This document shows, in pieces, positions 13,513 to 54,800 of a DNA stretch of 64,000 nt (position 1 is the first letter of the stretch; every line of letters starts with the position of its first letter). Where the stretch lies: positions 672,995 through 736,994 of the forward strand of contig NMRA01000013.1 in the NCBI GenBank assembly GCA_002633005.1, written 5' to 3'. Under the pieces are notes generated by a model. That model did not search any database. It was given only the letters and a program-made list of their open reading frames with translations, and was not told where the DNA came from. The DNA comes from Phoronis australis (taxonomy: Eukaryota > Animalia > Phoronida). Both the position numbers and the translations under genes were made by a program.

Positions 13513-15190
13513 GTTTTTTTTTAATGTTTATTACGAAATCTTCAGAATACAATGAATATATATAACCCAGAAAACACCGAGAGGCATTAGATCTGGGTAA
13601 AAAAATACAAAGAAGTCTATATACAATTATTATATACGAATACATTAATAAAAAAAAACTGATGTTAAGAATACAATGATATATGACAACGAATGAAAAT
13701 AATTCATTTTCATACAGATGTATAAAATTCTATCTACTCAAACAAAGAGATTTAATGTTATAAAGAAATTCTGATACTATTTCAAATAAAACCTTATTTT
13801 CGTTTGAGTTAAGTTCTTGACATTCATATAGAAAGAAATTAATTTTGTTGTACAATTGCGGAATTTCAGAATATTTTTTATAAACGTTGGGGTATTATTC
13901 GAGTGCCTGGAAGAGCTGTACCCTCTCCTCCTTGCATACCTCACAAGCAAAGAAAACATGAGGATATATCTGGGTATCTCCACAGGAACACAGAGGCGAA
14001 ATATCATTAAAATTGTCTAAATTTCTCGTTGTTTAGGAATAGACCACATCTTGATCTGTATAGGGTTATTTCATGGTTGCGGGGAAGTTGGAATGATGTC
14101 AATGGGAGTGGCAAGTCTGGAGTAGTGGTATGCATTTTAAAGTTATTTTTTAGAGTGACGATTGAAGTGCTTTCTTTAATTTTGAATGGTAAGGAATTCC
14201 AGTTGTCAATACAAGTTAATATCGTTGATCTTCTGAAGGCTTGGCTGATGGAGGCTGGAATAGTATACATATTGCTTTGCTGGTCTCGTGCTTGGTCTTT
14301 CTTTCAAAGAGGATTTTGTTAGAGTAATTGTTTATGTTGGTTAAGACTTTGAATGTATACATGGACAGATCAACACTTTTTTCAGGTTTAAATTTCATCT
14401 TCCATTTGTAAGACCAGTCATAGAGTTTGTTAAGGTCAGTTTGCAATTGTAAGAAGTCATGGGGATGCTCTTTTGAGAATGGGTGGAAAATTGCAGTGTC
14501 ATCAGCATATAAGAATGTTTTAGAGCTTATCGTGTCTGGAAGATTATTGATGTACAGTAAAAAGAGTAAGGGGCCTAGTACGCTACCCTGTGGTACTTCA
14601 GCATTTACGAAACCTGGCGTTGATGATGATAAGACACCCTCAATTCGGACTTTGTAAGTTCGATTTTCCAGATATGATTTTAAAAGTAAGAAGAGAGTGC
14701 CTGAGAAACCGTAAGATTGTAATTTATGTAGAAGCAGGTCATGGGGAACGACATCAAAAGCTGACGCAATGTCTAAAAATACGGATCTCACGTTGTACCC
14801 TTGCTCAAACTTTAGGTGGATGTCGTGTACAATTTCTGTAAGTTGCGACACAGTGCTGTTACCAGGCATGAATCCAATCTGTTTTCGAGTTCCCTTTTTG
14901 TATTGGTATCATAACGCCAGGCTTCCAGTTCGAAGGAAATTTTCCAGATTGTAGTATTTTGTTGTATAATGTTGTCAGAGGAAGTGTAAGCTCTCTTGCT
15001 ATTATCTTGATCATTTTATTGGTTATGAGATTGGTACCATCATTTTTGTTTTCGTACATGTTTTCTAGTAGTTTTCTGACTTCAGATGGTTGGGCTTCTA
15101 TGTAAGAGAGGTGTTCTAATGTTCTGTTTGGGAATTCTGGATAGTTTATTGTTGGTGCAATGTGACTCTTGGCAGTGAAGTAGTCTAGAA
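13513..15190 (-). mobile_element. 5'-truncated non-LTR retrotransposon (CR1/L2/Jockey-like RT), degenerate
   Basis: ORFs 14859-15059 and 14216-14869 contain FPSNWK...IP, FLDIASAFDVVPH, VPQGSVLGPLLFLLYINNL and LYADDT. Frameshifts present. AATAAA and an A-tail near 13514-13530 on the minus strand. Confidence 0.9.
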
Positions 15191-15701
15191 ATAAGATACA
15201 TGTTCAAAATTAAACAATCCATGTTTAAGTTTTGATGTACCTTCAGTGTAAAGAACTTGACAGAGAAAATGGGGAATGAGTTTTGAGCAAGTCAATGGAA
15301 ATCTACTGAACGCTATGCCTAAAAAATAACATACTACGCTATGCCAGTCCAAAGAAAACGCCATCCTGCAAATAACTTACGCAGAAACTATGACGATACA
15401 GCAATCCATGAGTATTCGACTCAATTTTGTCTTACTTACTAAGCCGCACAACACAACTCCATGTAGGCCCGGAATGAAACACCCTTAACTGAATTTCTTG
15501 CTTAATGGAATAATTCATTGAAAATTTAAGCTATTTTGAAATTGGGATAAGATTCCAACACAGCAACCTGAATGCATGCATTAATCAGGTAGGACAATTG
15601 TCTCGCGAGCGCCACCTGATGGATTCCAAGCTCCTCAATACTTTCAGCCCTATGCAATACACAGCATCAACTGCCTTATTTGAAGGATCGTGCAGTCTTA
15701 C

Positions 15702-30800: not shown

Positions 30801-33800
30801 TCTTACTTCTATTTGTTATTTTTTATTATTATTTATTTTGTTTCATCAGTCTTTTCATGTTAGTTTCCTATTCATCGTTGACTATTTGAATCTTGTCTTT
30901 CACTTTGTAATTCTGTTCGTTTTACTGTCTTTACATGTCTTTACTGAGGTCCCCACAGAAAGCAATGAGAACTGATGGGGCTCCTCTCATTGTAAATATT
31001 ACAATATATAAACACAGTATATTCTATACCTGCACGATGTGTCCCACAATGAGAACTGATGGGGCTACTCTCATTGTAAATATTACAATATATAAACACA
31101 GTATATTCTATACCTGCACGATGTGTCCCACAATGAGAACTGATGGGGCTACTCTCATTGTAAATATTACAATATATAAACACAGTATATTCTATACCTG
31201 CACGATGTGTCCCACACATTTCTTTCCATCTCCAACATAGTGTTCTCTACATCGACAGCTAAAACAGACACAGTATACGACACCATTAGCACACAGTCAC
31301 TGTGGATTCCATACAATTGGTATTTAGCTTGATTATTGCAAGTAATGTCAAGAGACACAAGATGAAATATTCTTCAATATTAACAGCACTAAACCATTAG
31401 TAATTCTGCATGCTTTGGCTACAGGAATGAGTGCATTTTCACCACACATCCCCACGTGGATCATACGATGCAACGTCATTGTCAGCACATAGCTCTGTGT
31501 CAAGTTTCAGTGAAATCTGTACATCACTTTTCTACATATCATCCAGAAACACTGTTTCCCGAAAAATAAAAACTGAAAAGCCTTCTGGCCCTGGTGGGCA
31601 GGGTCTGACCAGGGCACAATGAAAAGTGTCTTTCACCGCCTTACACACTTGTGTCAAATTTCATCAAAATATGACAAGGGGTTTTTGAGACATCGAGTGG
31701 ACTCCCAGAAAACAGTGCAATTTGATAGGATGACAATACGAGATAAGACACATGTGTGCATGCTTGCGACCACATAAAAAGCAGGTCACGTTCACAGTGA
31801 CCAGCTATTCAAACACAAGTAATTTTTTTGTCTAATACTAGTTGTTTATTTTCGAAAGTTCACTATAGGAGACACTTAAAGTAAGCATGTAACCTAACCT
31901 AACTTGCAGTGGTCCCACCATAGTACAATTGGCGTTTTTATCGCAAGAGTCCGGCTTCCTCACACAGAGGTCTACCAGGGAGCAGTTGCCGTCCGCAGTG
32001 GCTTCAAATCCCTCCACGCATCGACAGGTACTCTGTAAATAAAGCAATGGCCTCCTGCTTTACCTAAAGCTTGAAAACGAGACAGGAGATGTACATTAGT
32101 CCACAAGTTACAATCCGTGACTTAAAGAACAACCCCAAGCTTATTCAATATCCTGATGGTGGGAGATTGTAATCGCTAACGAGTTATGATCAGTTACCAA
32201 GCCACTGCAACAAAACATACTGACAAAAATGTAAGTCCTCACTCTTGGATTGATACGATTCAAAGGTCATGACCAGTGACCCAAGATCCATGATTTTGGT
32301 TTTACAGGCTGGGCGTGCTCACCATATTGGGAGCGATATAGACACACTCAGCAAATACTCTAGGACAGCCACCATTGTCAGTCTGACATGGGTCGATAGC
32401 GTCGCAGTAGTACCCATCCCCGGCGTAGCCCGGCTTGCACTCGCAGTCGAATAAGTCATAGCGTAGCGGATGGCAAGTGGCATTCTGGTTACATGGCTTC
32501 TCATCACAAGGGTTGATGGCTGGAAAACCAGAGGTGATACTTGTAAAATAGATTTTGAGATTATCTAGGACCTTAATAAACGACTTCAACTTTAAGTTAA
32601 GTAATGAAAAATTGCTTTGTCAATGATTAAAAGTATATATTTTCTGCAAGGAGAAAGATCGAGGATTCTAAAAATATGCTTCTTACTACTGTGTCTTTAT
32701 TATTGTCATGTGACCACATTTTTTAAGTCAATTTTTCATGTGCAAGAAAGGTACATTTACAACAAGATTACCCCCTAGACGATTTTACTAAAACTTCTTT
32801 AAATGTCTCAAAAACGGTGAGAGGATTTTGCTTTAAAATGCCTAGTTTTCGCCTTCCGAGCAATATACAAATAAGACCGCTGTTTTTTTTCCATAAATGC
32901 CTAGAGTTTTGCAAGTTCATATGCCCTAAAACCCAAGCTAAGTGAATGATAAAAAATTCTATGAATAATTTCTAGACCGTGATGCACTCATAATTACTTG
33001 GCTACACCTTTATTCAGCAATTGTGAGTGTTTATAGCATGCCGTTATTATTGACAGGGACACGATAAAACGAATTTGGATTTTGACTATAGTCTTGATAC
33101 AGCGAGCTGGCTGCGTCAGTGTCTCCGTTAGACCCAGAAATTTCACACAGCCCGGGTAGTTCACCTCATCCCCAACTTGTAGATCGAGCCTTGGATTATA
33201 ATACTCCACGGTAGAGCTAATGACCATCGGCCTGTGCACACAAAATCTGTGAGTTAACCAGCACTCACCTTGCACGTTGCAGCCGTTCAAGTGAAAAACA
33301 ATCTAGTAAACGCCATTTTCTTGCATAATCCTCCGCCTTTTGTAACAAAAAAGTCTGTCGTCGATGACCCGCAGACGCACGCTCACTCACTCTCATACGC
33401 AGACGAACTTCAAAACAAACGTCACGTGACAACAANNNNNNNNNNNNNNNNNNNNNNNNNNNNNNNNNNNNNNNNNNNNNNNNNNNNNNNNNNNNNNNNN
33501 NNNNNNNNNNNNNNNNNNNNNNNNNNNNNNNNNNNNNNNNNNNNNNNNNNNNNNNNNNNNNNNNNNNNNNNNNNNNNNNNNNNNNNNNNNNNNNNNNNNN
33601 NNNNNNNNNNNNNNNNNNNNNNNNNNNNNNNNNNNNNNNNNNNNNNNNNNNNNNNNNNNNNNNNNNNNNNNNNNNNNNNNNNNNNNNNNNNNNNNNNNNN
33701 NNNNNNNNNNNNNNNNNNNNNNNNNNNNNNNNNNNNNNNNNNNNNNNNNNNNNNNNNNNNNNNNNNNNNNNNNNNNNNNNNNNNNNNNNNNNNNNNNNNN

Positions 33801-36800
33801 NNNNNNNNNNNNNNNNNNNNNNNNNNNNNNNNNNNNNNNNNNNNNNNNNNNNNNNNNNNNNNNNNNNNNNNNNNNNNNNNNNNNNNNNNNNNNNNNNNNN
33901 NNNNNNNNNNNNNNNNNNNNNNNNNNNNNNNNNNNNNNNNNNNNNNNNNNNNNNNNNNNNNNNNNNNNNNNNNNNNNNNNNNNNNNNNNNNNNNNNNNNN
34001 NNNNNNNNNNNNNNNNNNNNNNNNNNNNNNNNNNNNNNNNNNNNNNNNNNNNNNNNNNNNNNNNNNNNNNNNNNNNNNNNNNNNNNNNNNNNNNNNNNNN
34101 NNNNNNNNNNNNNNNNNNNNNNNNNNNNNNNNNNNNNNNNNNNNNNNNNNNNNNNNNNNNNNNNNNNNNNNNNNNNNNNNNNNNNNNNNNNNNNNNNNNN
34201 NNNNNNNNNNNNNNNNNNNNNNNNNNNNNNNNNNNNNNNNNNNNNNNNNNNNNNNNNNNNNNNNNNNNNNNNNNNNNNNNNNNNNNNNNNNNNNNNNNNN
34301 NGTATCACGTGACAACTTATTCAGAAACTGCAGGGCACGTTCAGAGAATCGAAAGGATTTCACCGCGAGCGTCATCTGTGCACGCTGCATCACACTCGTT
34401 CTATTTTCCTTTCGGTGCTCATTCGAAGGCGGGAGTTTCTTTGACAGCCACAGGGAATTTTTCGACGGTTTTTAGGCTTGTGTCGGGGTTCGTTACTTTG
34501 GAGCAAATGTCGAGCAGACAATCTTAGGATATACTTGCCTATGCGGCTAGCTTTTTAACTTGCCCATCGGGCAAGTACTTTTCAAATTCCACTTGCCCGA
34601 CGCAAAATCTACATGTACACGGGCAATCGGGCAACCGTTAGTGTTGAGCCCTGCATTCAAGGAAATAGTACACGGCAAAATGTCACCAATTGAAGACACA
34701 ATACAACCAGGAGAATTTTTTTCATAAAGATAATATCAGTTTAAAGCTCTATATCGTAGCAAGCAAACAACAATGTTTTGAGAAACTGGCCACTCACAAC
34801 ATTAGAAGGCTTTGATGAATGGAGATGGCAATTTTTGCAATTATTTCAATCCGAATTGATTATTATAAACCAATTTTTTTCCAAATAGTACTGACAGTGT
34901 ACTATGCTTTTGATACATATCCAAACAGTGTTCAAATTTGAACTCCGTAAGTTATAGCAGGGATTTTTTTATCCTCAATTTAATGTTTTCTGTGTAACAA
35001 ACTTGCATTCAATATCCCGGGCCCAGAGCAGACTATGTATTTTATTATATGTGTGTATGTGACACTGGGGGTATGTGTGCGTGTGTGAATATGTGTATAA
35101 ATCTCTTACTTTTATTAATTATTAGTAAGTTTTATTAAATATTTAAATTAAATTTTATTTAATCATCTTGTCTTACTTCTATTTGTTATTTTTTATTATT
35201 TATTTTGTTTCATCAGTCTTTTCATGTTAGTTTCCTATTCATCGTTGACTACTTGAATCTTGTCTTTCATTTTGTAATTCTGTTCGTTTTACTGTCTTTA
35301 CATGTCTTTACTGAGGTCCCCACGGAAAGCAATGAGAACTGATGGGGCTACTCTCATTGTAAATATTACAATATATAAACACAGTATATTCTTTACCTGC
35401 ACGATGTGTCCCACACATTTCTTTCCATCTCCAACATAGTGTTCTCTACATTGACAGCTAAAACAGACACAGTATATGACACCATTAGCACACACAGTCA
35501 CTGTGGATTCCATACAATTGGTATTTAGCATGATTATTGCAAGTAATGTCAAAAGACACAAGGAATATTCTTCAATATTAACAGCACTAAACCATTAGTA
35601 ATTCTGTATGCTTTGGCATCAGGAATGAGTGCATTTTCACCACATATCCCCACGTGGATCATACGATGTAACATCATTGTCAGCACATAGCTCTGTGTCA
35701 AGTTTCAGTGAAATCTGTCCATCACTTTTCTACATATCATCCAGAAACACTGTTTCCCGAAAAATAAAAACTGAAAAGCCTTCTGGCCCTGGTGGGCAGG
35801 GTCTGATCAGGGCACAATGAAAAGTGTCTTGCACCGCCTTGCACACTTGTGTCAAATTTCATCAAAATATGACAAGGGGTTTTTGAGACATCGAGTGGAC
35901 TCCCAGAAAACCGTAAAAAATTTGATAGGATGACAATACGAGATAAGACACATGTGTGCATGTGTGCATGCATGTGACTGCACAAAAAGCAAGTCGACGT
36001 TCACAGTGACCAGCTATTCAAACGCAAGTAATTTTTTTGTCTACTACTAGTTGTTCACTATAGGAGACACTTAAAGTAAGCATGTAACCTAACCTAACTT
36101 GCAGTGGTCCCACCATAGTACAATTGGCGTTTTTATCGCAAGAGTCCGGCTTCCTCACACAGAGGTCTACCAGGGAGCAGTTGCCATCCGCAGTGGCTTC
36201 AAATCCCTCCACGCATCGACAGGTACTCTGTAAATAAAGCAATGGCTTCCTGCTTTACCTAAAGCTTGAAAACGAGACAGGAGACGTACGTACATTAGTC
36301 CACAAGTTACAATCCGTGACTTAAAGAACAACCCCAAGCTTATTCCATATCCTGATGGGGGGAGATTGTAATCGCTGAGTTATGATCAGTTACCAAGCCA
36401 CTGCAACAAAAAATACTGACAAAAATGTAAGTCCTTGCTCTTGGTTTGATACGGTTCATGATCTTGGTTTTACAGGCTGGGCGTGCTCACCATATTGGGA
36501 GCGATGTAGACACACTCAGCAAATACTCTAGGACAGCCACCATTGTCAGTCTGACATGGGTCGATAGCGTCGCAGTAGTACCCATCCCCGGCGTAGCCCG
36601 TCTTGCACTCGCAGTCGAATAAGTCATAGCGCAGCGGATGGCAAGTGGCATTCTGGTTACATGGCTTCTCATCGCAAGGGTTGATGGCTGGAAAACCAGA
36701 GGTGATACTTGTCAAATAGATTTAAAGATTATCTAGGACCTTAAACGACTTCAACTCTAAGTTAAGTAATGAAAAATTGCTTTGTCAACGATTAAAAGTA

Positions 36801-39800
36801 TACGTTTTCTGAAAGGAGAAAGATCGAGGATTCTAAAAATATGCTTCTTACTACTGTGTCTTTATTATTGTCATGTGACCACATTTTTAAGTCAAATTTT
36901 CATGTGCAAGAAAGGTACATTTACAACAAGATTACCCCCTAGACGATTTTACTAAAACTTTTTTAAATGTCTCAAAAACAGTGAGAGGATTTTGCTTTAA
37001 AATGCCTAGTTTTCACGTTCCGAGCAATATACAAATAAGACCGCTGTTTTTTTTACATAAATGCCTAGAGTTTTGCGAGTTCACATGCCATAAAACCCAA
37101 GCTAAGTGAATGATCAAAAATTCTATGAATAATTTCTAGACCGTGATGCACTCATAATTACTTGGCTACACCTTTATTCAGCAATTGTGAAGTGGCAGCA
37201 AAAATACCAAAGTTCTGTCATAGGTATGTTGCCACCGTAATTTTTCACCTATTTAGCACACACCATATGACAGATAAGCGAAAATCTATTTTGTAATTTT
37301 TTTCAACAAAAATAAAGATAAAGATCAAGCATATTACAGCCAATCATTGCCTTGAAACATTGCATTAGCAGCAAAATTATGTCAGCCCTTGAAAAACAGA
37401 GGAATGGCAACTTTGGCAATTCATTTTGGGCAAAATAACTGACAATGGGATTGCGATTTCACTCAAATGACTATCATGTCATGAGATATTGGGTGACTTT
37501 GCTCAGGTAACTAACCGGATTAGCACCGTATGAAGGACTGTTTTAATGCACTGTATTTGCTGAATACGAAATAAGTATCGACAAATAAAATTCTTACTCA
37601 TGAGATATAACTACATGTTTTAACAATATGTGACCATGTGGGCGCACAAAAAGGACGAATACTTCAAACTGAATCATGAAATTACGCCTCCGTTTCCAAA
37701 AAATATGACCCTGAATATATTCAGTATCTTTTAATGTTTTTGAAAGGTCATTATCCGAATATATGCCCATGGTCTGGTTGGATTCTAGTGAACTGATTTT
37801 ACCTTACCTGGATCAAATTTCTCGGTCCTACTAGATCTTACTTGTACTGTATTCGGCCTAATAAGCGCCCAGGGTACTTGGAAAAATTTGTTTCTGGAGG
37901 TGGCGCTTATTGTAGCCTAAGGCAGTTGAAACCCGGTCTCCAAAATGAGTGAAATCGGAAGCTAGGATTCGACGCATCTGTAACCTATGATTGACTTTCC
38001 ACAAAATTGTGGTACATTACTATCAAACTTCGTTGTTAAATTATGATCCTTTTTCAGAAATCCCAGGGCGAAAACTCGCCGACTGATGCGTCGCTGACTC
38101 GCGATCGTCAATAGGGCAACTTGAATTCTTGAATAAAAATACAGTTTCGAATCCACAAATTACCTGAAATCCTCCTTAAGTTTTCCAAATAGCGTCCCTA
38201 AGATTTTTAAGTTCCTGTGGAGTCGGGATTAACAGATTAAGTCCAAATCAGCACTAGATCGCACGAGAAAAATCTGGATGAACACACATTTTGTTGTCGA
38301 GTGACGTTTATTTTGAAGTTTGTCTGCGTGTATGTGAGCCGAGTAGCATACATGTATGTAGCGCATGCTTCCTGGCCATATGCTTTTAACACTGGTCAAG
38401 TTTTATTAGTCTTGATTTGTGGTTTTCACGTGTAGCAAGAAATCTGGATTCCTGTTGAGGGAGATCTGTACGGGAAAGATACAACACAATCCTGTTGACA
38501 AGTACGCTGTGTCTGTTCTGAAAGTCCTGACCATGGTGGGACACAATCCTCACAAGATCAGCAAAATTTTTGCGTTCTTTCTGAAGCACTACTGAAGTTT
38601 GACGAGTATAGTCATGGCTAAATACTGATGTAGCAGCGAGGCCTCGTGGTCTCGAAGTTCCTTGCAAAATGATTTTTTCAGGACTGTTGGATATTGGTAA
38701 TACCTGTAATACCTGTAATACCTGTCACGGACAGGATCATTGGGGATATGCTGGTGCATTAATCCCCTCCCCAGACCATCCCCGTGACAGCAGAAGGTGC
38801 AGAACTCCAGGGCTGATGTTGCCTGTAAGCATTTGATTAGACAGCACTCGGGCACGGCCCTTCTTGTGACTCTTCGCAGCATGGCCATAAATAATACCGG
38901 CTTCGAGCAGGCGACTGCCATCATTGAACTCAGCCAGCTGGGATGCAGTCTGCTCGTGGTTGTTGGATATTGGTAAATTGAAGACATTACTAACTGTAGA
39001 ATTTTATAACTGTAGGTAAGGCATTTTTCATGTCTACACATTCACGGGGTGGGCGCTTATTTTACGAAAGTCTGAAAACGCGTGGGGGGCACTTATAGGG
39101 GCATGGGCGCCTATTAGGGCAAATACGATAAGTGTTTTCTAAATTTCTACCAAAAGTTGCGCTTTGTAGCCAAACTTTAATGACTGCAGGTAATATATAC
39201 AAAAACGACTTGACATACCTGTACAAACACCTTCAACAAACCGGAACCCTGTTTTACAGACACACACAGGAGCAGCTGCAGCTGACCTCTGCACACATTC
39301 GGCATTCACATCACAGGAAATGCTGTCGCAGGTGAGCAGAGCTAAAAGTAGAAAATTGTTAAAGTCAACAGAAGAAATGTGATGGATTAGAAAGTGGTTT
39401 ACAGAGCATGGTTTCTGTTCCTGTCTTTTTGATTTACAGAAACTTCCAAGAAACACTTTTCAATTCCCATGACTAAGATACATTACTGAGAATTTCTGAA
39501 AGAGCCCGGGAAACGTTCAGTCCTTACAAAGCATGTTCACCAACACCAGGGGGTCTCTCCAGTTTAGAGTGTTCCTTAATCCTAGTGGCCAGAGTGGGTT
39601 TGGCTCCCCAGTATAGAAGTGCGAGAACTGCATATTGCCAAAGCCCACGTCAGAGAGGAACAATGGGTACTCAAGCAAATTTAAAGAAGCTGTCTACATT
39701 TAATTCAAAAGCAGATGGCCCAACTTGCCAAGATGTAGACCCGCATCTCTCCCGTGTATGACATCATCTTAAGATCCAGGTCAACTTATCGTGCCAACAC

Positions 39801-42800
39801 CCAGACCCTTACAGTGAGGGAAGAAACGTCTGATCATTCTCAACCACCTGCTTTCTTGTGCATAAACCTGCCATGCTCAATGCTCATACATGGGCGGTGC
39901 AGCACTGAAATAAGTCTCCATGGTGCGCCCATCATATGGCATACACTCGTTTGTACCATGCCTTAAAACTTTGCTATTCCAAACATTCGCATCAAAAACT
40001 TTCAATTTAACCACTCACCACAGGCATATCCCCACCTATTTCGGCCAAAAACAATGGCCAAGTTTTCCCTTTCCTCGTTGATCAAGATGAGATTGGTGAG
40101 ACTTCACCATGTATGAAAATTGGTCTGAACTTGTTCAAATGGACTGATTTGAATAGGCTTACATGAAAAAATAATAAGCAAAAAATGAACAAGCTGAAAT
40201 ACAATAGTCATCAGAACAATGTCTTGAACAAAATACTGAGGATAACACTAAGTAGTACTGGGCATTTCTGATAAAGCGTACATCACCAGCAAGCATCGAT
40301 AGGCACTTTTTCGGAAATGAAGGAAGAAAACGCAACTTGTTCACCTCTAGAACACATTTCCTTTCTTTCATCATGTAGTCAATGAAAGGGTTGTTTTGTT
40401 TACAGTGTGCTCATGTTGGCTAAAAAGTGAAGCTAAGGGAAGCTTAACAACCAACAAAATTAAATCATGCTGGTATTGAATAGCGTTTTTGAGTTTTCCA
40501 GTCATCACTGAAGAAACACTTCCTCGTTCCAAAAATCGCAAAAAGATTATACTGCACTCAGGTAGCACAAAGTGATCTATTATCTTCAGACTGTTCAGGG
40601 GGCGTGCCTTATGGGAAATCCCCTCAGGTAAGTAAATACAGTGGAGACTACTTAATGCCATACCCTCTGTTTTGACACAAATTATTAATTATAAGCAGTG
40701 ATCGTAACCACTCATATAACCTCATCATGCCAAGTGGAGAGTCTCACAGTACTTTCATGATAGGCAAACAGGAAGAGGTTGATTTTTACCCCCCGTTGCC
40801 GAGATCCGATAAGGCAATCAGATTTACGTTAGTTTTCATGCAGAAAATTAAGCAACGACAGAAATTTGTAACATTCTTGATCCGCTAGGTGACGCTTTGC
40901 GCCATGTCCCTAACCAATCATAACAACGCATAGTAAGGTTAAAGGTCAGGAAAGTTCGGGCGCTAGTACCGTGAGCCCGACTGAAGTCAGAGCAATACTT
41001 GTCAAGTTTACAATAACAGTCTTTAGAGTTTCTGGAATTCTAGTCTACAGTATGACAGTGCTAGCTGGGTCATTGGGGTCACAGCTCTATGTTAACTTGT
41101 AGGCCTACACATAAGCACAACAAAAGTGAATTGAACACCAGCCAGCCGGCGTGTGCTTGCAGCCTTAAGCGGGCTGCCAAAAGCGCTTTTTATTAATCTT
41201 CACATGTTTGCCAATACATATTTGTGTCCGGAATCCACTCCAATGTAACAGTATTAAATTAAGACCAAAGGACAATGTTCTGTGGATCACAAAAAACGAA
41301 ACAACATTTTGAAGATAACTAGTATGACATGCTATGAACAGTCCCACTAAACAAGATTGGTCCTAACCCCAGTCGCCAAGGTAAACGGTGGGGTATGGAA
41401 AATTGAACTAGACCATATTTATCCACCTTGGCTGAGTCGCGCTCGGCTCACGATCAAAGCGATGCCTCCAAGCTGCTCTATTCATCGAGTCACGAGCGAG
41501 GATAATTGGCTTCGCTCATGCGGATATGATCAGCTGATTACAATCTACCTAGCAGACTGTACTTTTTATGGAGAGAGTTACAAGTAGTTCTTACTGTAAT
41601 ATTTGAAAAGAGGAGCGAAAACAAATATGAGTACAACTTTGAATTTTTCAAATCGGCCCAGGATAAGAGATTTTGCAACACAGCAACACTCACGATTACT
41701 TTCAATCGGCGCGCACGAATACAAAAGTATAGGACCCAAGTTATTTAGATTTTGGAACGCATGCATTGCAATATTCAAAATACGTTTATTATGAATCTTA
41801 CAAGCTGCAAAACGACATTGTTTAATTTCATTGTGCTCATTCATTGTCATCCGTCAAATCGGCAATTTCCGAGATGTGATCTGCGGTGTGCGCGGATGCG
41901 TACAAAACACGGGATTGTTATGTTCCTGAAGTACGAAAATTAAGAAACTTTAGCATGCCGTTATTATTGACAGGGACACGATAAAACAAATTTGGATTTT
42001 GACTATAGTCTTGATACAGCGAGCTGGCTGACCACTGCGTCAGTGTCTCCATTAGACCCAGAAATTTCACACAGCCCGGGTAATTCACTTCGTCCCCAAC
42101 ATGTAGATCGAGCCTTGGACTATTAATACTCCACGGTAGAGCTAACGACCGTCGGCCTGTGCACACAAAATCTTTGAGTTAACCAGCACTCACCTTGCAC
42201 GTTGCAGCCGTTTAAATGAAAAAACAATCTAGTAAACGCCATTTTCCTGCATAATCCTCCGCCTTTTGTAACAAAAAAGTCTATCGTCGATGACCCACAC
42301 GCTCCGGCACTCACTCTCATACACAAACGAACTTCAAAACAAACGTCACGTGACAACAACATGTGTGTTCATCCAGAGATTTTTCTCGTGTTGTGGGGTG
42401 CAATGTAGCGCAGATTTGGACTTAATCGCAATTAATCTGGACTCCACATGAACTTTAAAAATTGTAAAACATAAGGAAGATTTCAGGTAATTTGTTGAGT
42501 CGAAACTATATTTTTATTCAAGAGTTCAAGTTTTCCTATTGACGATGGCGATTCAGCGACGCATCAGTCGGCAAGTTTTCGCCCTGTAATGAGCACAATT
42601 TTTTGAAAAAATATCGTAATTTAACAACGGAAGTTCATAGCAATGCACCACAATTTTGTAGAAAGACTGTCATAGGCTAAAAATACGTCACAGAGCGTAA
42701 ATTTTATGAATCCTAGCTTCCGATTTTACCCGTTTGGGAAACCGGCTTTCAACTGCCGTAGGCTACAATAAGAATCCCCTCCCCGTGAAATGAATTTTTC

Positions 42801-45800
42801 TAAGCGTTTATTAGAGCCAATACAGTATACAGCTTTCCTTCAAGGCTTAGGTGATGCTACGACATTATTCTTTGTTGCATTAGTAACTGGTCTTGGCAAA
42901 TTATCATTTTATGGCCTGGTCATCCATTCAGCCAAAAGTAGTTCTAGAGGTGGCTTATCAGCCAATTATTCACGCATGCTGACTCACAATAGAAGCCTGA
43001 TAAGAGTGAAGGTGGATAAATGCTGTGTTCCTACAGTTTCTTGTGTTAGTGGATGTGTTCACGACATGAACTATGCTCACAGGCGAAAAACCTGCATAAA
43101 ACTGTATAAAATCCGACTTTTATCAAACTTCGAAAGTATTTCTAAACTCATACCGGATGAGAAAATGAACATAACAGTTTCTTACCGATTCTGAGCTAAT
43201 CTCTCATCTATACAGAGTGCAAATTCCATTGCAAGACAGCCGGGCGATCGGCAACATTTCATCTCACAGCACTGTACGTGGATCCATTTTCTGAACACAA
43301 GAGACGTGGAAAATTTTTCGAAAAACAGCATGAAATTTGGACCAGCAACCTCTGAGTACTCCTGGTAATCACCTACGCTATCGGCAAATCCGATGGCAAA
43401 ATGAATTCAGCCACAAACTTGACTTCAAAATGAGCTATGCGCTCAAATATTGGCTTCCGGATGATCGTTAACAAAGGCCTGAATGGGGCAAACTACAAAC
43501 TGCAAGAGACGTGGAAAATTTTTCACCAATGACGCTGATATTTGGCAGTAACAAGTCTTAACATACACTCTATGCGACAGGCTATCGGCAAATTGCGTAG
43601 TTATCTCCCCTCACTTATAAATTCCTGATTATAGCCTGTTCTTGTGTATTTCTTATGGAGGGCTGTTGGCAAGATTTAGCGCATGCGCAGTAGTGCATGT
43701 TACAAATTTCTGGCGTTGGTGAAAGTACACATGCTAATAAGCAGATGAGAATCACTTGAGCAGCTTTTAAAGACAAAATCCAGGAATATGACAATAATTC
43801 ATCACCTTATATAGTTACATGGGTTAATGTGAAATGCTTTTTGACATTTTATAGCAATAACCAGAATATTCTGTTATCCAGTATGACATTAACAGGACTC
43901 CACTGTCTCAGGCCCTGGGCCTGCAGTGACTGCGTCTTGTCGCTTTAAGCGTGTAGTCATACCTTGGTCACAGTGTTCCCCAGTAAACGCAGGTTCACAT
44001 GTACAGTTTCCAGATCCATTTATACCAGAATCACATTTGCCATGAAGACAATGGCATTCTGAAACAAGAAATTAATAGGTGTTTAAAACAAAAAGGGCAC
44101 CCAAATAACATTTCAGACCTACAGCTAGTGCAATAAACATTTAGAATTGTCTCGCTGGCCCATACAACACTGCATAATGCCAAATCACAAAGTAAGGATT
44201 CCAATGATATAGGATTGCATGTAGCCAGCCAGATAGCTGTACGAAGACTATCATCAAAATACAGCTAGGTACCACTGTGTGTTTATCTTCCATAGACCCC
44301 GAAATTGCATACAGCCAGGGGAGTTCTGCTCTTCGCCTCCCATGAAACTTGTTTCAACATGTAAAGCTAAAGACCAGACAGGGTGCATGTAAAATCTGGG
44401 AGTCAACGGACACTCACCTTGCCCATTAGAACCGTTTAAGTGAAAAACAATGCAACAAACGTCATCTAACTTTTCTTACGTCAATCTCGACCTTTAGTAA
44501 CAATGAAAAGTTATGTTTTCATTTCGAAAACATTACGCTCGTGTCACGTGCAAGCGACATTTCCTAAACTTTTGCGAAACTATTCACTTCAGTCAGTAGG
44601 CAATGACCATCGCCTTTGTTGGCCCGAACCAGAGGCGATGCAGCTCCTATAGGCGCTCCATACGCCGGAGGCTTTTCGGCGAATTATACCTCGCACCAAC
44701 TAAACCATCAAAGTCACGTTCTTATAAATGCCTTTTGCGCACAGAGGAACACCTTAGGAGGTTGTCGATGTGTTTAATTCCTTCCAACTCGAACAAATAC
44801 TCCCGTTATCAAACTTTTTCTTTGAGCAGTCCCTACTTCAGTTCCCAAAATCGTGAACTCAACATTTTCACTCAGCGCACACCAAGAGATTCTTTTAACC
44901 AGGCCGAAGGTCAGAAGTTGCGGTCCTACCGCCGAACTTTGAAAGCTAAAGCCGGGAACCAGCCGTGCATTTCCCGTGTTGTTAAACATTAAAATGTCAA
45001 ATATGTGCACAAAGACTATAATGTCATATCAACAGCATTTATTTTTATCAAATACAAACAATAATTTATGGAAATACAATCAGTTTCAAGTAACGCTAAT
45101 TAAAGACAAGTATTAAGTTCGGTGGTGGCATTTTGGAAACAACTGAAACATTTGACTGGCAAGACCGCACTGGCTCACCTTTGGCCTATTTAAAGATTGA
45201 GGTCATGAAGTCACATCACCTAGCGAGCGCTGTAAAAATTGGAGCGTGCGCAGTATAAAAATGGTGAGTTCACGATTTTGGGAACTGAACAAGAGACTGC
45301 TCGAACAAAAATTTTGATAACGGTATTTATAAGAACGTGACTTTCATGCTTTAGCCAGTGCGAGGCATAATTCGCCGAAAAGCTTCCGGCATATGGAGCG
45401 CCTATAGGAGCTGCATCGCCTCTGGTTCGGGCCAACAGAGGCGATGGTCATTGCCTATTTGCTATTCAATTCAGTCAGTGAACACGTGGACGTTAACATT
45501 ACGATTCTAGGCTAAAAATTGAAGAAGTAGTCATGGTTTAAAGAGGGACCGCTACATTCGAGTAGTGCCACGGCAATTTCAAATACATGGTTTACAAATT
45601 CAAGTTCAGATTCAGCTATAACCAAGATTCATCAACATACACTGTCCCTTGTCGTCTGCCGCTTGCTCGCCATTTTTGCTCAAGCTTGGAGCGCCGTCTT
45701 TTGAATTCATCACGAACCCATTTAGGCCTAGTCATGTCAGATTTTCTCACCTGTCATTAGGCCTACCTTTTAAAACCAGAGACCGTATCCCACTATTGAT

Positions 45801-48800
45801 AACACATACACTCACTTTTTTATTCTATTTGTAAATAATATTTACCTGTAGTGTTGAAATGAGAGAACAACGAGAGAGGTAGAATTTATTACGTTTGTAT
45901 GCCGGTAGGCCTACTATGTGGTATATAACACGTACGTGGTAGACGTACATCGGAGGTCTCACCACAGAGCTATACATCAGAAGTAATGTCTAAACACTGG
46001 CAAGTCCAATAACTACATCTCTCTTGCTAAAACTTTCACTTTTACACACATCCCTTTTAAGAACAAACATAGTAGTTCTCTAATCTAATGTTCACTTGGA
46101 CGTCACTCCAACACGTACTGCACGACGATCTACTGAATTCACATGACCCATCGCTGGTCCGACTGACGGCTGGGCTATCTTCTTGGTGTTCTACAGCAGC
46201 ATCGAGTTTCTTGAGGTGTGCGCGATTCCGACGGTAGTCATTTGTTTTCGTCTCAAAACCTGTCATGTCGAGTCCCGTTTTGAGTGTTGCGGGAGACCAT
46301 CAGTTCAAGGTTACCGCGGCGCCGCGCGACTCAGGCTCCGTCAGACCAGCCCAGTCTTGGTGGAGGCGTCGAGCGCAAGTACTGTCATATTTTCGTAAAT
46401 TCATATTAAAGGTTAATGGGATATTGGAATTTAGAAGCTAAAACAATTAAACTCAAACCCTAATCCCAAAAACTCATCGATGACTTGAGCCTGCCACAAC
46501 TCAGGGAATTTTCCGAGTAGAGTTCGCTTTCCGTTTCTATCGTTAGATGCCGCTGCCGTTCACATTAGATTTTCCTAAGCACAAAAAGAAAGAAAAAACT
46601 CCAACAAACCTCCTTTTATAAATATAATCGAGTAATGTGTAGGATAACGATATAACTCTTGTTGAAAAAATCTAGCTTTTTAAAGAATATATCCTTATTC
46701 AAAGAAATATTTGAGAATTCAAGGTAACACTTGTTTAGTATAAGTCCATTGTTTAACTAGTACCCTGACTGTGTACGAGCGGTATCGCTTCTCGGCCTTT
46801 TGGCTAAGATCAAAGTGTAGTATCTGTTCTTATCAGCTTAATATCTGATACGTCCCCCATTGGGGGACTTCGATATTAAACTGATTTTTGGAACTGGGCG
46901 AAGTGTCAGGGGCTTGCTCCGCCTTCGCCACGGGTTGGCCTGGTATTGCAGTACCTCCGGGATCGGCCCACTCCCCACTGGGGAGTAAAATATAAACAAG
47001 TAATGAACGCAACCGAAAATAGAGGAGTCAATTTTACATTTCAACAGTCCAGTCCACCGAATCCGACGGCATACTACTGTCGATCTCTTATTTTAATCCT
47101 TGGCCAACCTTCAACAGCCAAGAATACCCTTTCCCTGGGTGCGCGCATGACTCGGATAATATGTCACTGCAAGCTCACGACTCAATGATTAGAATAGGAA
47201 TAAATCTAACACAGAATCGCTCGTGCACCATTTTGCATATCACTGTAGTTACAGGATTCACGTGCAATTTGTCTCGTCATCTGAAAACCTTCAGCATCAG
47301 TTGGCTAAGAGCGCTCGCGGCGAAGCCACACGCTATAAATATTTGGAGTTTTCCTTGAAACCTTAAAATGGTGTTTTTTCTTGAAAAAATGTTGTGGGAT
47401 AAAACCTGATATCAGATACTCTTGTTCAAAGTTTGATTTTCGTGAAAATCCGGAGGCCGAGAGTGCTCGAATCATCATGTGTGACATCCATTTTACGGAG
47501 TGGCGAACCCGGACCTATTCCTTAGCCAAGAAAAGCACGTCACAAATGTTTCCATCTGATGATTGAAAATGACTTTTAACTTCCTATCAGCCAGGGCACC
47601 AACAATTAAAACACCGGAAACTGCCATCACTTTTGAAACCCCGGGTCAACCCGGAGGGGACTTTTACTCAGTGGAAGAGGCTGGCGGGACTGGGCTGCTG
47701 TTTTGACAGACGACTGGCTGTTACAAGGACACGTTTCCTACGAAAGAGTGTCTTTCAATGAAATTTCTAGTAGCGGTTCACTTTTTGGCTGGAGCTCTGT
47801 AAAATAAAGGAACTCATATTTTTCGTAGCAGAACAGTGTATGCCGAAAAGGCTTGGTACTTTATTTTTATGTTCCACGGAAACTGAAATGTTGAATATTA
47901 ATTTTACAAGGTTACACTCCAGTGTAAATGGGTTATGCTGGAAGACTGCACTTCGGGCCGATTAAAAGGGCGGTGAGGCCTAAATGACTCAGCCCTTTTA
48001 ACTAGACTGGAGATATTTTCTAAAAGCCAAGTCCGGGTGATCATGATTTCCAAGTGGCATACTCCGTCGAGTCAAGAACCGTCCCGGTCTTCAGTGGGCC
48101 ACATTAGTTAGCAAAAGTTCCCTGAATTTACAAATTGGACGCTGTAAGTGAAATGTGTTCAGTCTATCAGTAACACTGAAGCTTATTTCATGATTAATAT
48201 ATTTTACAAAGTCATCATATTCCCCAAATTCATTGACCAGTAAGGAAAAATCTGAACGCATAGGCTATTCTTCCAAAGCCAATTCTTACCGTTTGTAAAC
48301 ATTTCCATTATTTTCGCAAAAATAGTTCTAAAAAATAATCACACTGATGCTGAAAAGTGCATGCCCACTAAACAGCGTCACTACAAGCACTTCTAAGGGT
48401 AAATTGCCCAGTGGTTCCATAGAGTATTGAAGTAAGGGGTCCGGTAGAGAATACCTCGTGAAAAAACAAATTGGGAACGACTGGGGCTCTGCGGCGAGAA
48501 GCAGAGTGGCTGAGATTTCTCTGCAGCTGGGGCTCCGCACAAAACAGATGCCCGATTTCGTCCGCACAGGACCTATTCAGACTAGGAGAAGGTCAATCCA
48601 AGAAGCGAAAAAAGGTGCAGCTTGGTGCATATTACGAATCTGGGACCCCGTCCCGGGGAGGGCAGGGGCAGCTGCAAAATTGTGTCAGCCATGAGGGGAC
48701 CCCATTTCATCGCCACAGGTTCCCCCTGAATGGCTGTGGTGACAGTGGGGGGAGCACTTACAAGATTGTGTCAAAAGGGTGAATTGTAATGACCATGGCC

Positions 48801-51800: not shown

Positions 51801-54800
51801 GGTGCTCGAATTCCTGACGATGTGGACTTTTTGGTAACAAAAAACGGGCGGACTAAAAAAAAAAAAAAAAAAAACGGGAGCACCACCGTGAATTGCGCGT
51901 TTGTGCTTGTTTAGTGGACATTTGTCTCACCTCACTTTTTGTTCCCCAAAGGACGGACCTTTTGCCCACTTCGCCCCCCCCCCCCCCCCGGGTGCGCGCA
52001 TGGAACGTGANCCCCCCTGGGTGCGCGCATGCACATTCACCATAATATATTTCTACCTAGCGGATATGTACTACGATAACAGGACACTCTAAGCTCAGTT
52101 ATTCAGTTCACGTTAACTTTCACTTTCGCGTAAAAATTTAGCTGTTGCGAAACCCATTTTTGTTACTGTATCGTGAATCGGTGAAAAACAAAGATTATTA
52201 ACATAGAGAAGAAAGCGAGCTAAAGATATACCCTTGAAGTGCACTCCTTTTACTACATAGGAATGAAGAAGACATGTTTTCACTAGGGACATATTGTTTC
52301 GATTTTGAGAATAATTTTTGGAAATAATTAAACTGGGTGTCGTGAATTACGTAAAATTTGAGCACGTGTAGGAGTATTGAATGATCTATGGTATCAAAAA
52401 CTTTGCTCAAGTCGATAAAAATTTGTAAGGGTGTATAACAGTTGTTGTGATAATTATAAACTTTGTTAACTAGGCAAAGTACGGGGAATTCTGTTGAGTG
52501 ATTCAGTCTAAAGTCACAAGAAGTATAGGACGATCCGGAATACACAGCGACACTTGATTCTCGCAGTGCTGCAGTAGCCGTTGAACAGTTCGATGCCACC
52601 CAAGTTTTACTACTGTGCTGTGGGCTGCAACTCCAACCTCAGAAATTTGGATAAACTTGAGAAATATCCGAGGATGTCATTTTCCCGCACATCATTTCCA
52701 GAATCATCCCTGCGTTTCTAAAACAAGGCCAATGTAACAACCCGTTTTCCTACCACCAAGACAAAGGAGACTTTTAGCCGAGACCGTCCTATTGTTTGTT
52801 AAGTAAGAAAATCAATGTTAACAGAATTTTTAAAGAAAACGAGCAACACGGGAGTCTTTAACTCTTTCGATCTTCTTTGTCCAATTCTTTTTTATACATC
52901 GGTACAATTTTGCTATTTTCAATGAGTAAGCTACTATTCCTGTATGTAGTGATTGCCTTAATATTTGTGCAATTGTTTTGGAAAGCCTAAAGCATGATTT
53001 AATTAAGTTGCTGGAAAGACTGTCATGGAAAACCCTGCTATAATTACTTAGATTTCACGTAGTTTCGATTTCTTCTTCAGTGTCTGAGTGCAAAAGTAAG
53101 GATGGACGGTCTCGATACTTGAGATATGAACTTGATTTAGGCATTGCTCCCGTTCTAAAGGCTTGATCCCAAGGCCCCAAAATGAATAAAGTTGTTAGGT
53201 GCCGATTTGACACAGGTTTTAGTTATTGCCACTTGTAGACTTGAGAAATTGTTAAACATGTTAGCGCGAGTAATTAGCTGGCTTAGAATTTTGTTATATG
53301 ATTTACAACCTCGTTTTAGGTTGATGTCTTCCCGTGTGTGGGGTGAGTTTTAATTTTTATATAGTTTGTCTCTGGATTTTTTGATAACCTGGGTCATCCA
53401 TTTGCAAACTTTTCAAAAGTTTTATACCGGATCGGTAAGAATATTCACCATATAAAACAATAAATTAGTGATATTTACGCAAGGAACACGATCGAACGTC
53501 GATGTCAACAACATTTCAGTTTCCGACTTCTTTAGCTTGGCGACAAGCAACAAGAAACACTGGATTTGTAAGGACACGGGTACTTATTAAGTTCAGAGAT
53601 TGTACCTGTGTATAGGTGATTTGATATAAAGCGCGCTGTACAAACGAACATACATGTAACGCGACCCAAGGACAGCGCTTCGATAAATAACTCACTAATC
53701 AGATCAGAAAAAAAACGCGCGTGATCAAGATTGCGCAGACGACGAAATCTACGGAGCCAGGCTACTGAGACTAATATAAGTCTTTCGATTTGTCAGGTTC
53801 TCTCATTTCCGAATATTTTTCATTATTTGAATTGGTCAGCAAAAATTGGCCAAGATGTGACATTGTGATATAAGCGATTCGTTTTTGTGAACTTTTAAGT
53901 AAACAAGCTAGCCAAGCTGTGGTGTAGTGATAAGAGCTGTAAGCCATACATAACGTCTAGTAATCAGCAGAGAGGCAAGCGCCTCCCATTCATGAAGTTT
54001 GTGGATAGCGCCCCTTACTGAAGCAAGTTATTGGCTAAGCGCTCTGTAGGAAGTGAGCTTTTTCATGCTTAAAACCTTTATTTACCAGAAATCATATTGT
54101 TGAATATGGATGGGGCAGGGTGGCCTCAGCTACATGTCATTACAATATAAATAACAATACAAAATACATAACAAATAATTACTTTAGAGGAAACTCCTAG
54201 TGACTGGGCTTAAAATTAAAATGAAATTACTATTACTATAAGAGGGTAGATACCAAAGGAAGGGAAGGACTTTCATATACACATTTACACTCTAACCTGC
54301 TCGGATTGAAAAATTAAGTTAGTATTTACGCTAATCGAAACTTATGGGAACTCGACTCCCGCCTTATGTATTGAGGTTTCTGCGGGAACCTCGCCGACTT
54401 TAAAAAATTAAAAAGTTAATAGTAAAATAATGCGAACACAAACAGGGCTGAAAGTTACAAATGTTTATTATTATAAGTAATGTTTTTCGACTGACGAAAG
54501 TCATGCTGTTGTTTTAACAAGATGAAAGTACTGTAGGCAACGTCCATTGTCTCAAACAGTAAAACTGTCATGTTTCAGACACCTGTCTCTGTGACGTATA
54601 AGTTATAGTGAGCAAGGGTATATATGGTATTGAAGACTTCACTTTGTTTTCCGAGAAAGCAAACTAGAAAGTTATATAACGACGGTTCAATACGCAATTT
54701 AAAAAGTTTATTTAAGAAATAATGTAGGGAATGCCATAGATGTTTCAAACAGAAGCAGTTTAAAAAATATGGAGAGAAGCCTGAACCTCGCCACAGTAGG

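What the first reader, a model, noticed from the sequence alone, without database searches (positions are those of the whole stretch)
46095..46393. Unrecognised, highly structured RNA-like element just upstream of U2 snRNA on the same strand
Seen in sequence: a GC-rich island in AT-rich intron with nested pairings. The closing helix is GTAC-TGC/GCA-GTAC (46115-21 with 46375-82), CGACG/CGTCG (46123-27 with 46367-71), TCTACTGA/TTGGTGGA (46129-36 with 46357-64; 3 G-U), GCTGGT+CTGACGG/CCGTCAG+ACCAGC (46153-69 with 46338-50) and CTGGG/CTCAG (46170-74 with 46330-34; 1 G-U). It encloses a multibranch: hairpin CTTGGTGTT/AGCATCGAG (46182-206; 3 G-U), arm TCTTGAG/TTCAAGG (46209-15 with 46304-10), inner hairpin GATT-CGACG/TGTCG-AGTC (46224-74) and a small CGCG/CGCG hairpin (46315-26). 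A TTGGA/TCCAA hairpin precedes it. All wobble pairs work on the + strand only. A decaying DNA inverted repeat would more likely give a mix of G-T and A-C mismatches, so this suggests RNA-level selection. I find no SRP helix-8, RNase P/MRP P4, 7SK double-GATC, U3 box or hammerhead motif. Inference: a novel or very divergent ncRNA gene linked to U2.
Basis: partly seen in the sequence, partly recalled or inferred. Interest (0 to 1): 0.85.

Follow-up and report, generated by a model that had tools for sequence, protein, structure and literature searches.

The report
Oversized Y RNA-like gene beside U2
Just upstream of a U2 splicing-RNA gene in an animal genome lies a GC-rich stretch that carries the signature opening letters of Y RNAs (small partners of the RNA quality-control protein Ro60) within a predicted long stem, so it is likely an oversized, divergent Y RNA gene or a decaying copy of one, although no transcript has been shown.

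Summary
The GC island and all 13 listed pairings exist, 390 nt upstream of U2, antisense in an intron of a stabilin-like gene. 'Highly structured' is overstated: MFE z is -0.39, four inner helices have p≤0.02 and G-U pairs are not enriched. Only the end-to-end pairing exceeds chance (4 of 1000 shuffles, post hoc). Rfam finds nothing. A loose form of this motif occurs in 12 of 100,000 shuffles, and it forms the inner helix. Weak promoter similarity to U2 also points to a start near 46150. It fails strict Y RNA membership: the loop is about 155 nt, the UU of the Ro60 site is missing, no U tail follows the stem, there is no TATA, and there are two internal T4 runs. No homologue or + strand transcript was found. 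Best reading (0.45): a divergent, long-loop Y RNA-derived gene, possibly decaying. Main rival (0.30): an untranscribed GC island or foldback remnant.

The parts
46153..46162 (+). Y RNA-type lower-stem 5' strand GCTGGTCCGA (equals nt 2-11 of human Y1 and Y3); C46160 is the equivalent of the bulged C9
   Evidence: Sequence; Y sequences printed in PMC1948019 and PMC4798961; single in the window; C46160 unpaired with p 0.81-1.0 in five folds
46163..46174 (+). Middle and upper stem 5' strand (CTGACGG, then CTGGG with the central UG)
   Evidence: Pairs with 46338-44 and 46330-34; ensemble p 0.2-0.5
46175..46179 (+). CTATC, 4 of 5 letters of the UUAUC motif found at the 5' end of Y RNA and sbRNA loops
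   Evidence: Sequence; motif described in PMC4450293 and PMC4726728
46180..46329 (+). Oversized loop domain (about 150 nt) with two well-predicted hairpins (46182-46206; 46284-46322) and two internal T4 runs (46245, 46278)
   Evidence: Hairpin p about 0.9; domain z -0.28; T runs; 46313-46347 differs in one contig
46330..46351 (+). 3' strand of the Y-type stem: CTCAG, 3-nt bulge GCT, CCGTCAG, ACCAGCC; it lacks the UU that pairs with G10-A11 in human Y3
   Evidence: comparison with the Y3 sequence in PMC4798961
46352..46393 (+). 3' extension ending in T4 (46390-93): predicted as a terminal hairpin if the RNA starts near 46150-53, or as the 3' arm of the outer rod if it starts near 46100
   Evidence: hairpin core p 0.75-0.86; outer rod p 0.91-1.0; no difference listed over 46348-46393 in the X6 contig or over 46349-46393 in the X5 contig
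46096..46136 (+).
   Evidence: outer duplex 7 of 1000 shuffles, post hoc; one read shows a 4-nt gap somewhere in 46103-46143 (from bin depths)
46010..46098 (+). Upstream DNA with patchy colinear similarity to the U2 upstream region at offset 635 (19 of 28 at 46010; CACTTG at 46093-98): candidate snRNA-type promoter. A second PSE-like candidate lies at 46035-47
   Evidence: weak, depends on scoring; second candidate 9 of 13, reached by 13% of random sites
46784..46976 (+). U2 snRNA gene (neighbour)
   Evidence: Rfam RF00004, 193 bits

Best explanation
The element carries the Y RNA 5' signature in a predicted long stem and is likely a divergent, oversized Y RNA-derived gene on the + strand, whose Ro60 site is predicted to be imperfect. 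Shown: the signature letters, the partner strand, the CTATC motif, the final T4 and the U2 neighbourhood. Inferred mechanism: an snRNA-type upstream promoter like U2's would start transcription at about 46153 and end at the T4 at 46390-93, giving an RNA of about 240 nt. Its nt 1-22 would pair with 46330-46350 as lower and upper stems closing a 155-nt loop with two hairpins, followed by a 3' hairpin and a short U tail for La. In a working Y RNA the lower stem docks Ro60 and the loop binds other proteins. Here the strand opposite G10-A11 lacks UU, so C9 sits in a 4-nt bulge or faces an A, and Ro60 binding would be weak or non-canonical. The locus is about as likely a relaxed or decaying copy as a working RNA. 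A start near 46100, which would add the outer rod (295 nt), is not excluded.
For: (1) 10 of 10 identity with nt 2-11 of human Y1 and Y3, then 8 nt and TGGG-CTATC, against 7 nt and UGGG-UUAUC in the Y RNA fragment printed in PMC5331234. (2) In 100,000 dinucleotide shuffles of the element, both strands: the 9-letter core occurs in 362, a loose composite in 12, the strict composite in 0; each tier occurs once in the window, here. A 7-bp helix is possible, with a 3-nt bulge on the opposite strand and a UG/CA core in the upper stem; these are features listed in PMC4726728 and PMC4450293. (4) Noticed before the Y motif was weighed: the upstream DNA aligns with U2's upstream DNA (12 of 2000 GC-matched sites; promoter-only block shuffles 5 and 3 of 400), and the best diagonal of 1251 offsets (83 of 201, next 76) maps U2's start to 46149-46150. 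(5) Sharp GC/CpG island, low copy. (6) Y RNA homology searches are known to miss invertebrate members (PMC5006418).
Against: (1) Rfam, which holds a Y RNA family (recalled accession RF00019), gives nothing at E≤10 on 801, 371 and 60-nt ranges. (2) The size is 200-295 nt against 83-112 nt, and the loop about 155 nt against 31-65 (PMC4030889). (3) There is no single bulged C with GA/UU, the upper stem is CUG-CAG rather than GUG-CAC, and no U tail follows the stem. (4) There is no TATA at -31 to -24 for either start, and two internal T4 runs could stop Pol III. (5) The stem is not unusually stable: 362 of 2000 shuffles give as good a partner, and z is -0.12 for 46150-46393. (6) The promoter similarity vanishes with BLAST-like scoring (113 and 98 of 400), and a second PSE-like site points to a different start. 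(7) The motif tiers were written after seeing the sequence and after many recalled families had been compared by eye. (8) The only RNA read pair (X8) starts at 46078, upstream of both candidate starts, with its first mate on +, which in most stranded libraries means minus-strand (host pre-mRNA) RNA; X7 gave 0. (9) A contig from another sample with the same species label lacks 15 nt and has 2 substitutions in 46313-46347, which includes the stem's 3' strand. (10) No homologue was found.
Confidence: 0.45

Rival explanations
1. Untranscribed DNA: a GC/CpG-rich island, either an old decayed foldback or transposon remnant or regulatory DNA of the U2 gene, in which the Y-like letters arose by chance.
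For: MFE z about 0 on both strands; both strands pair their arms; no G-U excess; the intron and its neighbours hold true foldbacks (44597-45457, 37896-42782); indel variation inside the element in 2 of the 3 runs that touched it; three TGACG/CGTCA half-sites (their reading as ATF/CRE sites is recalled); no + strand reads.
Against: The loose Y composite occurs in 12 of 100,000 shuffles; it is single in the window with no terminal-repeat family; 2 reads in about 3.5 billion letters of RNA reads at 80% likeness argue against a dispersed family; no target-site duplication is seen by eye.
Confidence: 0.3
2. One reading: a novel ncRNA of about 295 nt (start near 46098-46100, end at the T4) closed by the outer rod and unrelated to Y RNAs.
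For: The outer helices are the best-predicted pairs (p 0.91-1.0); outer duplex 7 of 1000 on + vs 80 of 1000 on -; a PSE-like 13-mer at -65 shares 9 of 13 letters with U2's; the T4 follows the rod directly; the 3' arm shows no listed difference in two other contigs.
Against: It does not explain the Y signature; the PSE-like match is reached by 13% of random sites; z is not significant; one read has a 4-nt gap in 46103-46143, which overlaps the 5' arm.
Confidence: 0.13
3. An old tandem duplicate of the U2 unit (promoter plus 5' end) that has decayed or captured other sequence.
For: Diagonal 635/634 is the best of 1251 offsets; 46150-46177 matches the first 28 nt of U2 at 17 positions.
Against: The body does not align to U2 (362 of 1000 shuffles; 319 of 400); Rfam's U2 model finds nothing there; 10 other places in the window reach 17 of 28 or more.
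Confidence: 0.07
4. A highly divergent 7SK-like RNA: from 46153 the fold has a 7-bp helix joining the 5' end to a segment near the 3' end, then a 3' hairpin and a U tail, as in the M1/M8 plan of 7SK (recalled).
For: Fold of 46150-46393; 3' hairpin core p 0.75-0.86; length about 240 nt; 7SK searches are reported to fail in some invertebrates (PMC5006418).
Against: There is only one GATC and it lies upstream of this start, so there is no double-GAUC HEXIM site; no Rfam 7SK match; the 5' letters are Y-type.
Confidence: 0.05

Closest known systems
Vertebrate Y RNAs (hY1, hY3, hY4, hY5; Ro60/La RNPs; PMC4726728, PMC4030889)
   Same: Identical nt 2-11; 7-bp lower helix with the C9 equivalent unpaired; 3-nt bulge on the opposite strand; UG/CA in the upper stem; UUAUC-like motif at the start of the loop; snRNA-type genomic setting.
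   Different: Two to three times longer; loop about 155 nt with predicted hairpins; UU opposite G10-A11 missing; CUG-CAG instead of GUG-CAC; U tail 39 nt beyond the stem; no TATA; internal T4 runs; no transcript shown.
Nematode stem-bulge RNAs (sbRNAs) and CeY (PMC4450293)
   Same: Bulged stem, UG-CA core, loop motif at the 5' end of a variable loop.
   Different: sbRNAs keep A/GUG-CAC/U and UUAUC and have their ends paired directly before a U tail; here the motif is 4 of 5 and there is a 3' extension. Only one copy is in the window.
Bacterial YrlA-type Y RNAs (PMC4201824, search listing only; RYPER described in PMC4726728 section 5)
   Same: The modular idea: a Ro-binding stem joined to a second structured domain.
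   Different: No tRNA-like domain was detected here (ARAGORN 0 genes; no Rfam match); animal genome; no partner nuclease known.
7SK snRNA (features recalled)
   Same: Possible 5'-closing helix plus 3' hairpin plus U tail; comparable length.
   Different: No double GAUC, no 7SK 5' letters, no Rfam match.

Membership tests
Y RNA | Conserved lower-stem 5' strand | tested here: met
   46153-46162 equals nt 2-11 of hY1 and hY3; position 1 is C, not G
Y RNA | Seven-base-pair lower helix | tested here: met
   46153-59 with 46344-50, predicted p 0.77-0.93 from 46153 and 0.39-0.47 in the 299-nt fold
Y RNA | Single bulged C followed by GA paired to UU | tested here: not met
   The C is unpaired but lies in a 4-nt bulge or a C-A mismatch; no UU on the 3' strand
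Y RNA | [quoted passage not shown] | tested here: inconclusive
   GCT 46335-37 is bulged in one of two near-equal registers (-78.6 vs -80.4 kcal/mol) and lies further up the stem than in Y3
Y RNA | Upper stem GUG-CAC (UG-CA core) | tested here: inconclusive
   CUG-CAG: core kept, flanking pair reversed (definition)
Y RNA | UUAUC at the 5' end of the loop | tested here: inconclusive
   CTATC, 4 of 5, at the expected place (46175-79)
Y RNA | Oligo-U tail directly after the stem; length about 83-112 nt | tested here: not met
   T4 lies 39 nt after the stem; the core alone spans 199 nt; shorter versions ending at the internal T4 runs do not form the stem
Y RNA | Pol III gene-external promoter with PSE and TATA (TATA requirement recalled) | tested here: inconclusive
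   Weak PSE-like similarity to U2's upstream DNA; no TATA at -31 to -24
Y RNA | Match to the Rfam Y RNA covariance model | tested here: not met
   No match at E≤10; a long loop may exceed the model's hit length (inference)
Y RNA | Expression, and binding to Ro60 and La | not testable with these tools
   No small-RNA data; the RNA-seq lay gave one uninformative pair
7SK | Double GAUC HEXIM-binding hairpin (recalled) | tested here: not met
   One GATC only; no Rfam match
SRP RNA, RNase P, RNase MRP, U3, U8, vault RNA, tRNA | Match to the family models or core motifs | tested here: not met
   No Rfam match at E≤10; no P4 5' motif on +, no A or B box; ARAGORN 0
C/D snoRNA or scaRNA guiding U2 | Box C plus a guide of 9 nt or more complementary to U2 | tested here: not met
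   No box C on either strand, and no complement of 9 nt or more to the window's U2
Telomerase RNA | Template for TTAGGG | tested here: not met
   No CCCTAA in 46090-46400 on either strand; one TAACCT on -
U2 paralogue | Similarity along the U2 body | tested here: not met
   Rfam
MITE / foldback transposon | Many dispersed copies, terminal inverted repeats, target-site duplication | tested here: inconclusive
   Single in the window; few reads at 80% likeness; no duplication seen by eye; the whole genome is not held

The most novel reading that the evidence does not exclude
An invertebrate (probably deuterostome) Y RNA of 240-295 nt, two to three times the known size, in which a Ro60-type stem is fused to a large structured second module and a 3' hairpin or outer rod, made from a TATA-less U2-like promoter next to U2: an animal counterpart of the modular bacterial Y RNAs that tether Ro60 to another machine.
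Probability: 0.22. Interest if true: 0.72.

Novelty: new variant of a known kind. Interest (0 to 1): 0.47.

Why it matters
Ro60 homologues are reported in most animals, but the reviews read here name Y-like RNAs outside vertebrates only for nematodes, two insects and amphioxus (PMC4726728, PMC11825425), and a tunicate survey attributes its failure to find them to search sensitivity (PMC5006418). A long-loop Y RNA that Rfam misses would explain part of that gap and give a search recipe: the two stem strands with a free loop, near snRNA genes. It would also test whether animal Y RNAs can be modular tethers. If it is a decaying copy, it still points to a parent gene in this genome.

Tried and rejected
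Whole genome: none held, so copy number and a parent gene could not be searched. Sequencing runs: no RNA holder listed. Reads from 4 of the 9 listed runs were laid on 45570-46770 only, so U2 was not available as an expression control; X7 gave 0 reads, X8 2 reads, X6 1 contig, X5 1 contig. X6 is RNA only by guess and its contig runs 110 nt past the T4, so it is not counted as expression. Homologue scans: a gapped pattern of the inner helix gave 23 metagenome and 1 viral loci; none resembles the element beyond the pattern (best BLAST E 0.092, nhmmer none; 24 of 24 checked), and Rfam on 20 of the 24 found one tRNA and no U2. Exact 21-22-mers gave 0 in prokaryote genomes and 0 in viral contigs. 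A canonical Y RNA pattern gave 0 in both collections, so no model of my own could be built. Earlier findings by sequence, place and words gave nothing for this locus. Taxon: two word-index protein searches gave nothing; phmmer gave 47 hits, of which 10 were looked up and 8 carried names (amphioxus, sea star, acorn worm, scallop and vertebrates), so the phylum is unresolved. Coding exon: three + and one - stop-free frames of 53-83 codons overlap the element, with no sign of a gene; they were not searched further. Considered by eye from recalled motifs and dropped: RNase P (three short motifs in order, but no GAA before P4 and no room for P2/P3), hammerhead, SRP, U3, tRNA-type SINE (no A or B box), and an rRNA guide at 46121-46137 (no box C; target recalled, with one mismatch at the site that would be modified). 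In one search the row '3hp CAGU' had coordinates off by one and is not used. Literature searches listed no paper on long invertebrate Y RNAs or on a Y-like RNA linked to U2. The primary surveys (Mosig 2007, Perreault 2007, Boria 2010) were seen only as citations, an invertebrate 7SK paper was not held, and no supplements were read, so prior description cannot be excluded.
Full report
Setting. The window is animal DNA of about 40% GC. Exons of a stabilin-like gene run along the minus strand; the finding and a U2 gene (46784-46976, +, 193 bits) lie antisense in the intron between exons 49034-48879 and 44062-43955. Named relatives of the first exon come from amphioxus, a sea star, an acorn worm, a scallop and vertebrates, all at 31-42% identity. 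The animal is probably an invertebrate and perhaps a deuterostome (inference), but this is unresolved. No whole genome is held.

The observation. The island is real: GC 0.546 against 0.34-0.36 in the flanks, reached by 0.8% of 3086 windows, with CpG o/e 1.20. All 13 listed helices can pair. But the whole fold is no better than shuffles (z -0.39 on +, 0.01 on -). The end-to-end pairing is the one feature beyond chance: 4 of 1000 shuffles for both arms, 7 of 1000 for the outer arm, and rank 1 of 12,432 placements slid along the window, with the boundaries fitted to this site. The minus strand does nearly as well for both arms (20 of 1000) and worse for the outer arm (80 of 1000). The G-U argument fails: any fold has wobbles that work only on the folded strand, and here 15 of 97 pairs are G-U against 13.2±2.8 in shuffles.

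Known families. Rfam gives no match over the element at E≤10 on ranges of 801, 371 and 60 nt. ARAGORN finds nothing. Motif scans find no box C, no A or B box, no telomeric template, no double GATC and no guide to U2.

46153-46162 reads GCTGGTCCGA, identical to nt 2-11 of human Y1 and Y3 as printed in PMC1948019 (primer table passage) and PMC4798961 (Y3 sequence passage). Eight bases later comes TGGG-CTATC; the Y RNA fragment in PMC5331234 (passage) has UGGG-UUAUC seven bases after the same opening. PMC4726728 (sections 4 and 5 and passages), PMC4030889 (passages) and PMC4450293 (passages) define Y RNAs by a 7-bp helix, a bulged C9, a 3-nt bulge opposite, an upper stem with GUG-CAC (UG-CA core), UUAUC at the start of a variable loop, a U tail and a length of 83-112 nt. 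The element's inner helix supplies the 7-bp helix (46153-59 with 46344-50), an unpaired C9 equivalent (p 0.81-1.0), a GCT bulge opposite, and CUG-CAG. In 100,000 shuffles of the element the 9-letter core appears in 362, a loose composite in 12 and the strict composite in 0; in the window each occurs once, here. These tiers were written after seeing the sequence, and I had compared many recalled families by eye, so the real significance is weaker, perhaps near 0.01 for the loose tier (my estimate). No second Y-like copy was seen in the window.

Where it starts. Before weighing the Y motif I found that the DNA upstream of the element aligns with the DNA upstream of U2 (12 of 2000 GC-matched sites). 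The best of 1251 diagonals is offset 635 shifting to 634 (83 of 201; next 76), which maps U2's start to 46149-46150, three to four bases before the Y-like G. This is weak evidence. Promoter-only controls give 5 and 3 of 400 with soft scoring but 113 and 98 of 400 with BLAST-like scoring; part of the diagonal score comes from a 17-of-28 match to U2's 5' end that 10 other places in the window also reach; and the body does not align to U2. A second PSE-like site at 46035 would put the start near 46100 (9 of 13, background 13%). Neither start has a TATA at -31 to -24. From 46153 the lower stem becomes dominant (p 0.93) and 46352-46384 folds as a terminal hairpin before the T4; from 46100 the outer rod forms instead.

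Where it fails as a Y RNA. The 3' strand lacks the UU that pairs with G10-A11 in Y3, so the Ro60 site is not canonical; PMC4726728 states that removing either bulge or changing the conserved sequence abolishes binding. The loop is about 155 nt, the T4 lies 39 nt beyond the stem, and T4 runs at 46245 and 46278 could stop Pol III; RNAs ending there do not form the stem. The stem is not unusually stable (362 of 2000). It is therefore not filed as a member of the family, only as Y RNA-like.

Other individuals and expression (4 of 9 listed runs). X7 gave 0 reads from 1844 million letters. X8 gave one pair from 1641 million, spanning 46078-46309 by the bin depths, first mate on +, with a 4-nt gap in 46103-46143. 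It begins upstream of both candidate starts and fits host pre-mRNA or DNA; the library selection is unspecified, so it is no test of a non-polyadenylated RNA. X5 (another organism label, DNA) matches 46349-46434 exactly. X6 (same species label, RNA only by guess) has one 203-nt contig over 46290-46504 with no listed change in 46348-46393, four listed changes in the 111-nt flank, and 15 missing bases plus 2 substitutions in 46313-46347; 4 further differences near its ends are not listed. Read by eye, it keeps CCGTCA and CCAGC and gains CTAGCC, the last six letters of the Y3 stem, but it does not restore the UU either. This allele or paralogue keeps the two long-range inner helices possible while losing part of a loop hairpin. 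It shows looser constraint than a core snRNA would have (inference). The near absence of reads at 80% likeness argues against a high-copy repeat. No cross-species homologue was found, so covariation is untested.

Mechanism and rivals. Most likely (0.45) this is a Y RNA-derived gene with an expanded loop, made from an snRNA-type promoter like its neighbour's, and about as likely decaying as working. Promoter use, transcript, fold and Ro60/La binding are all inferred.

Novelty. Ten literature searches listed nothing on long invertebrate Y RNAs or U2 linkage, but the primary surveys and all supplements were not seen. An unchecked note from this scan (e1-8074627), found after my reading was formed, reports long Y-like genes in another invertebrate genome; it agrees but is not independent support. 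Verdict: new variant of a known kind if real; interest 0.47.

Noticed in passing
window 57334-15723 (minus strand): Stabilin-like gene (EGF and fasciclin domains) spanning the window; exons seen at 57334-57014, 49034-48879, 44062-43955, 36688-36491, 23945-23706 and 15872-15723 among others. U2 and the element are antisense in one of its introns.
   Followed up: partly
window 29762-33019 and 34645-37183: About 97%-identical duplication of a 3-4 kb block, including two exons, on either side of a gap of N near 33430-34300: probably two haplotypes assembled in tandem rather than a true exon duplication.
   Followed up: no
window 44597-45457: Foldback element with arms of 139 nt (92%) and 78 nt (86%) just upstream of the finding; MITE-like. 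Seven such arm pairs gave 18 G-T and 27 A-C mismatches on +.
   Followed up: partly
window 37896-42782: Long nested inverted arms (80-90%) about 4-4.7 kb apart, enclosing an EGF-coding stretch of the host gene at 39139-39459.
   Followed up: no
window 46304-46314 and 46718-46728: An 11-mer inside the element's loop matches the PSE-like box upstream of U2 at 10 of 11 positions; 31 other sites in the window lie within 3 mismatches of the 13-mer, so it may be chance.
   Followed up: partly
window 46784-46976: The U2 copy has a one-base insertion (an extra A) relative to the Rfam consensus just before the branch-point-pairing region.
   Followed up: no
window 8230-9196, 19147-20256, 12542, 26211: A dispersed family of about 145-nt and 446-nt subrepeats with a CCACTAG core.
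   Followed up: no
window 14007-15203 and 52198-52638: Broken reverse-transcriptase-like frames of non-LTR retrotransposon type, judged by eye from the translations.
   Followed up: no
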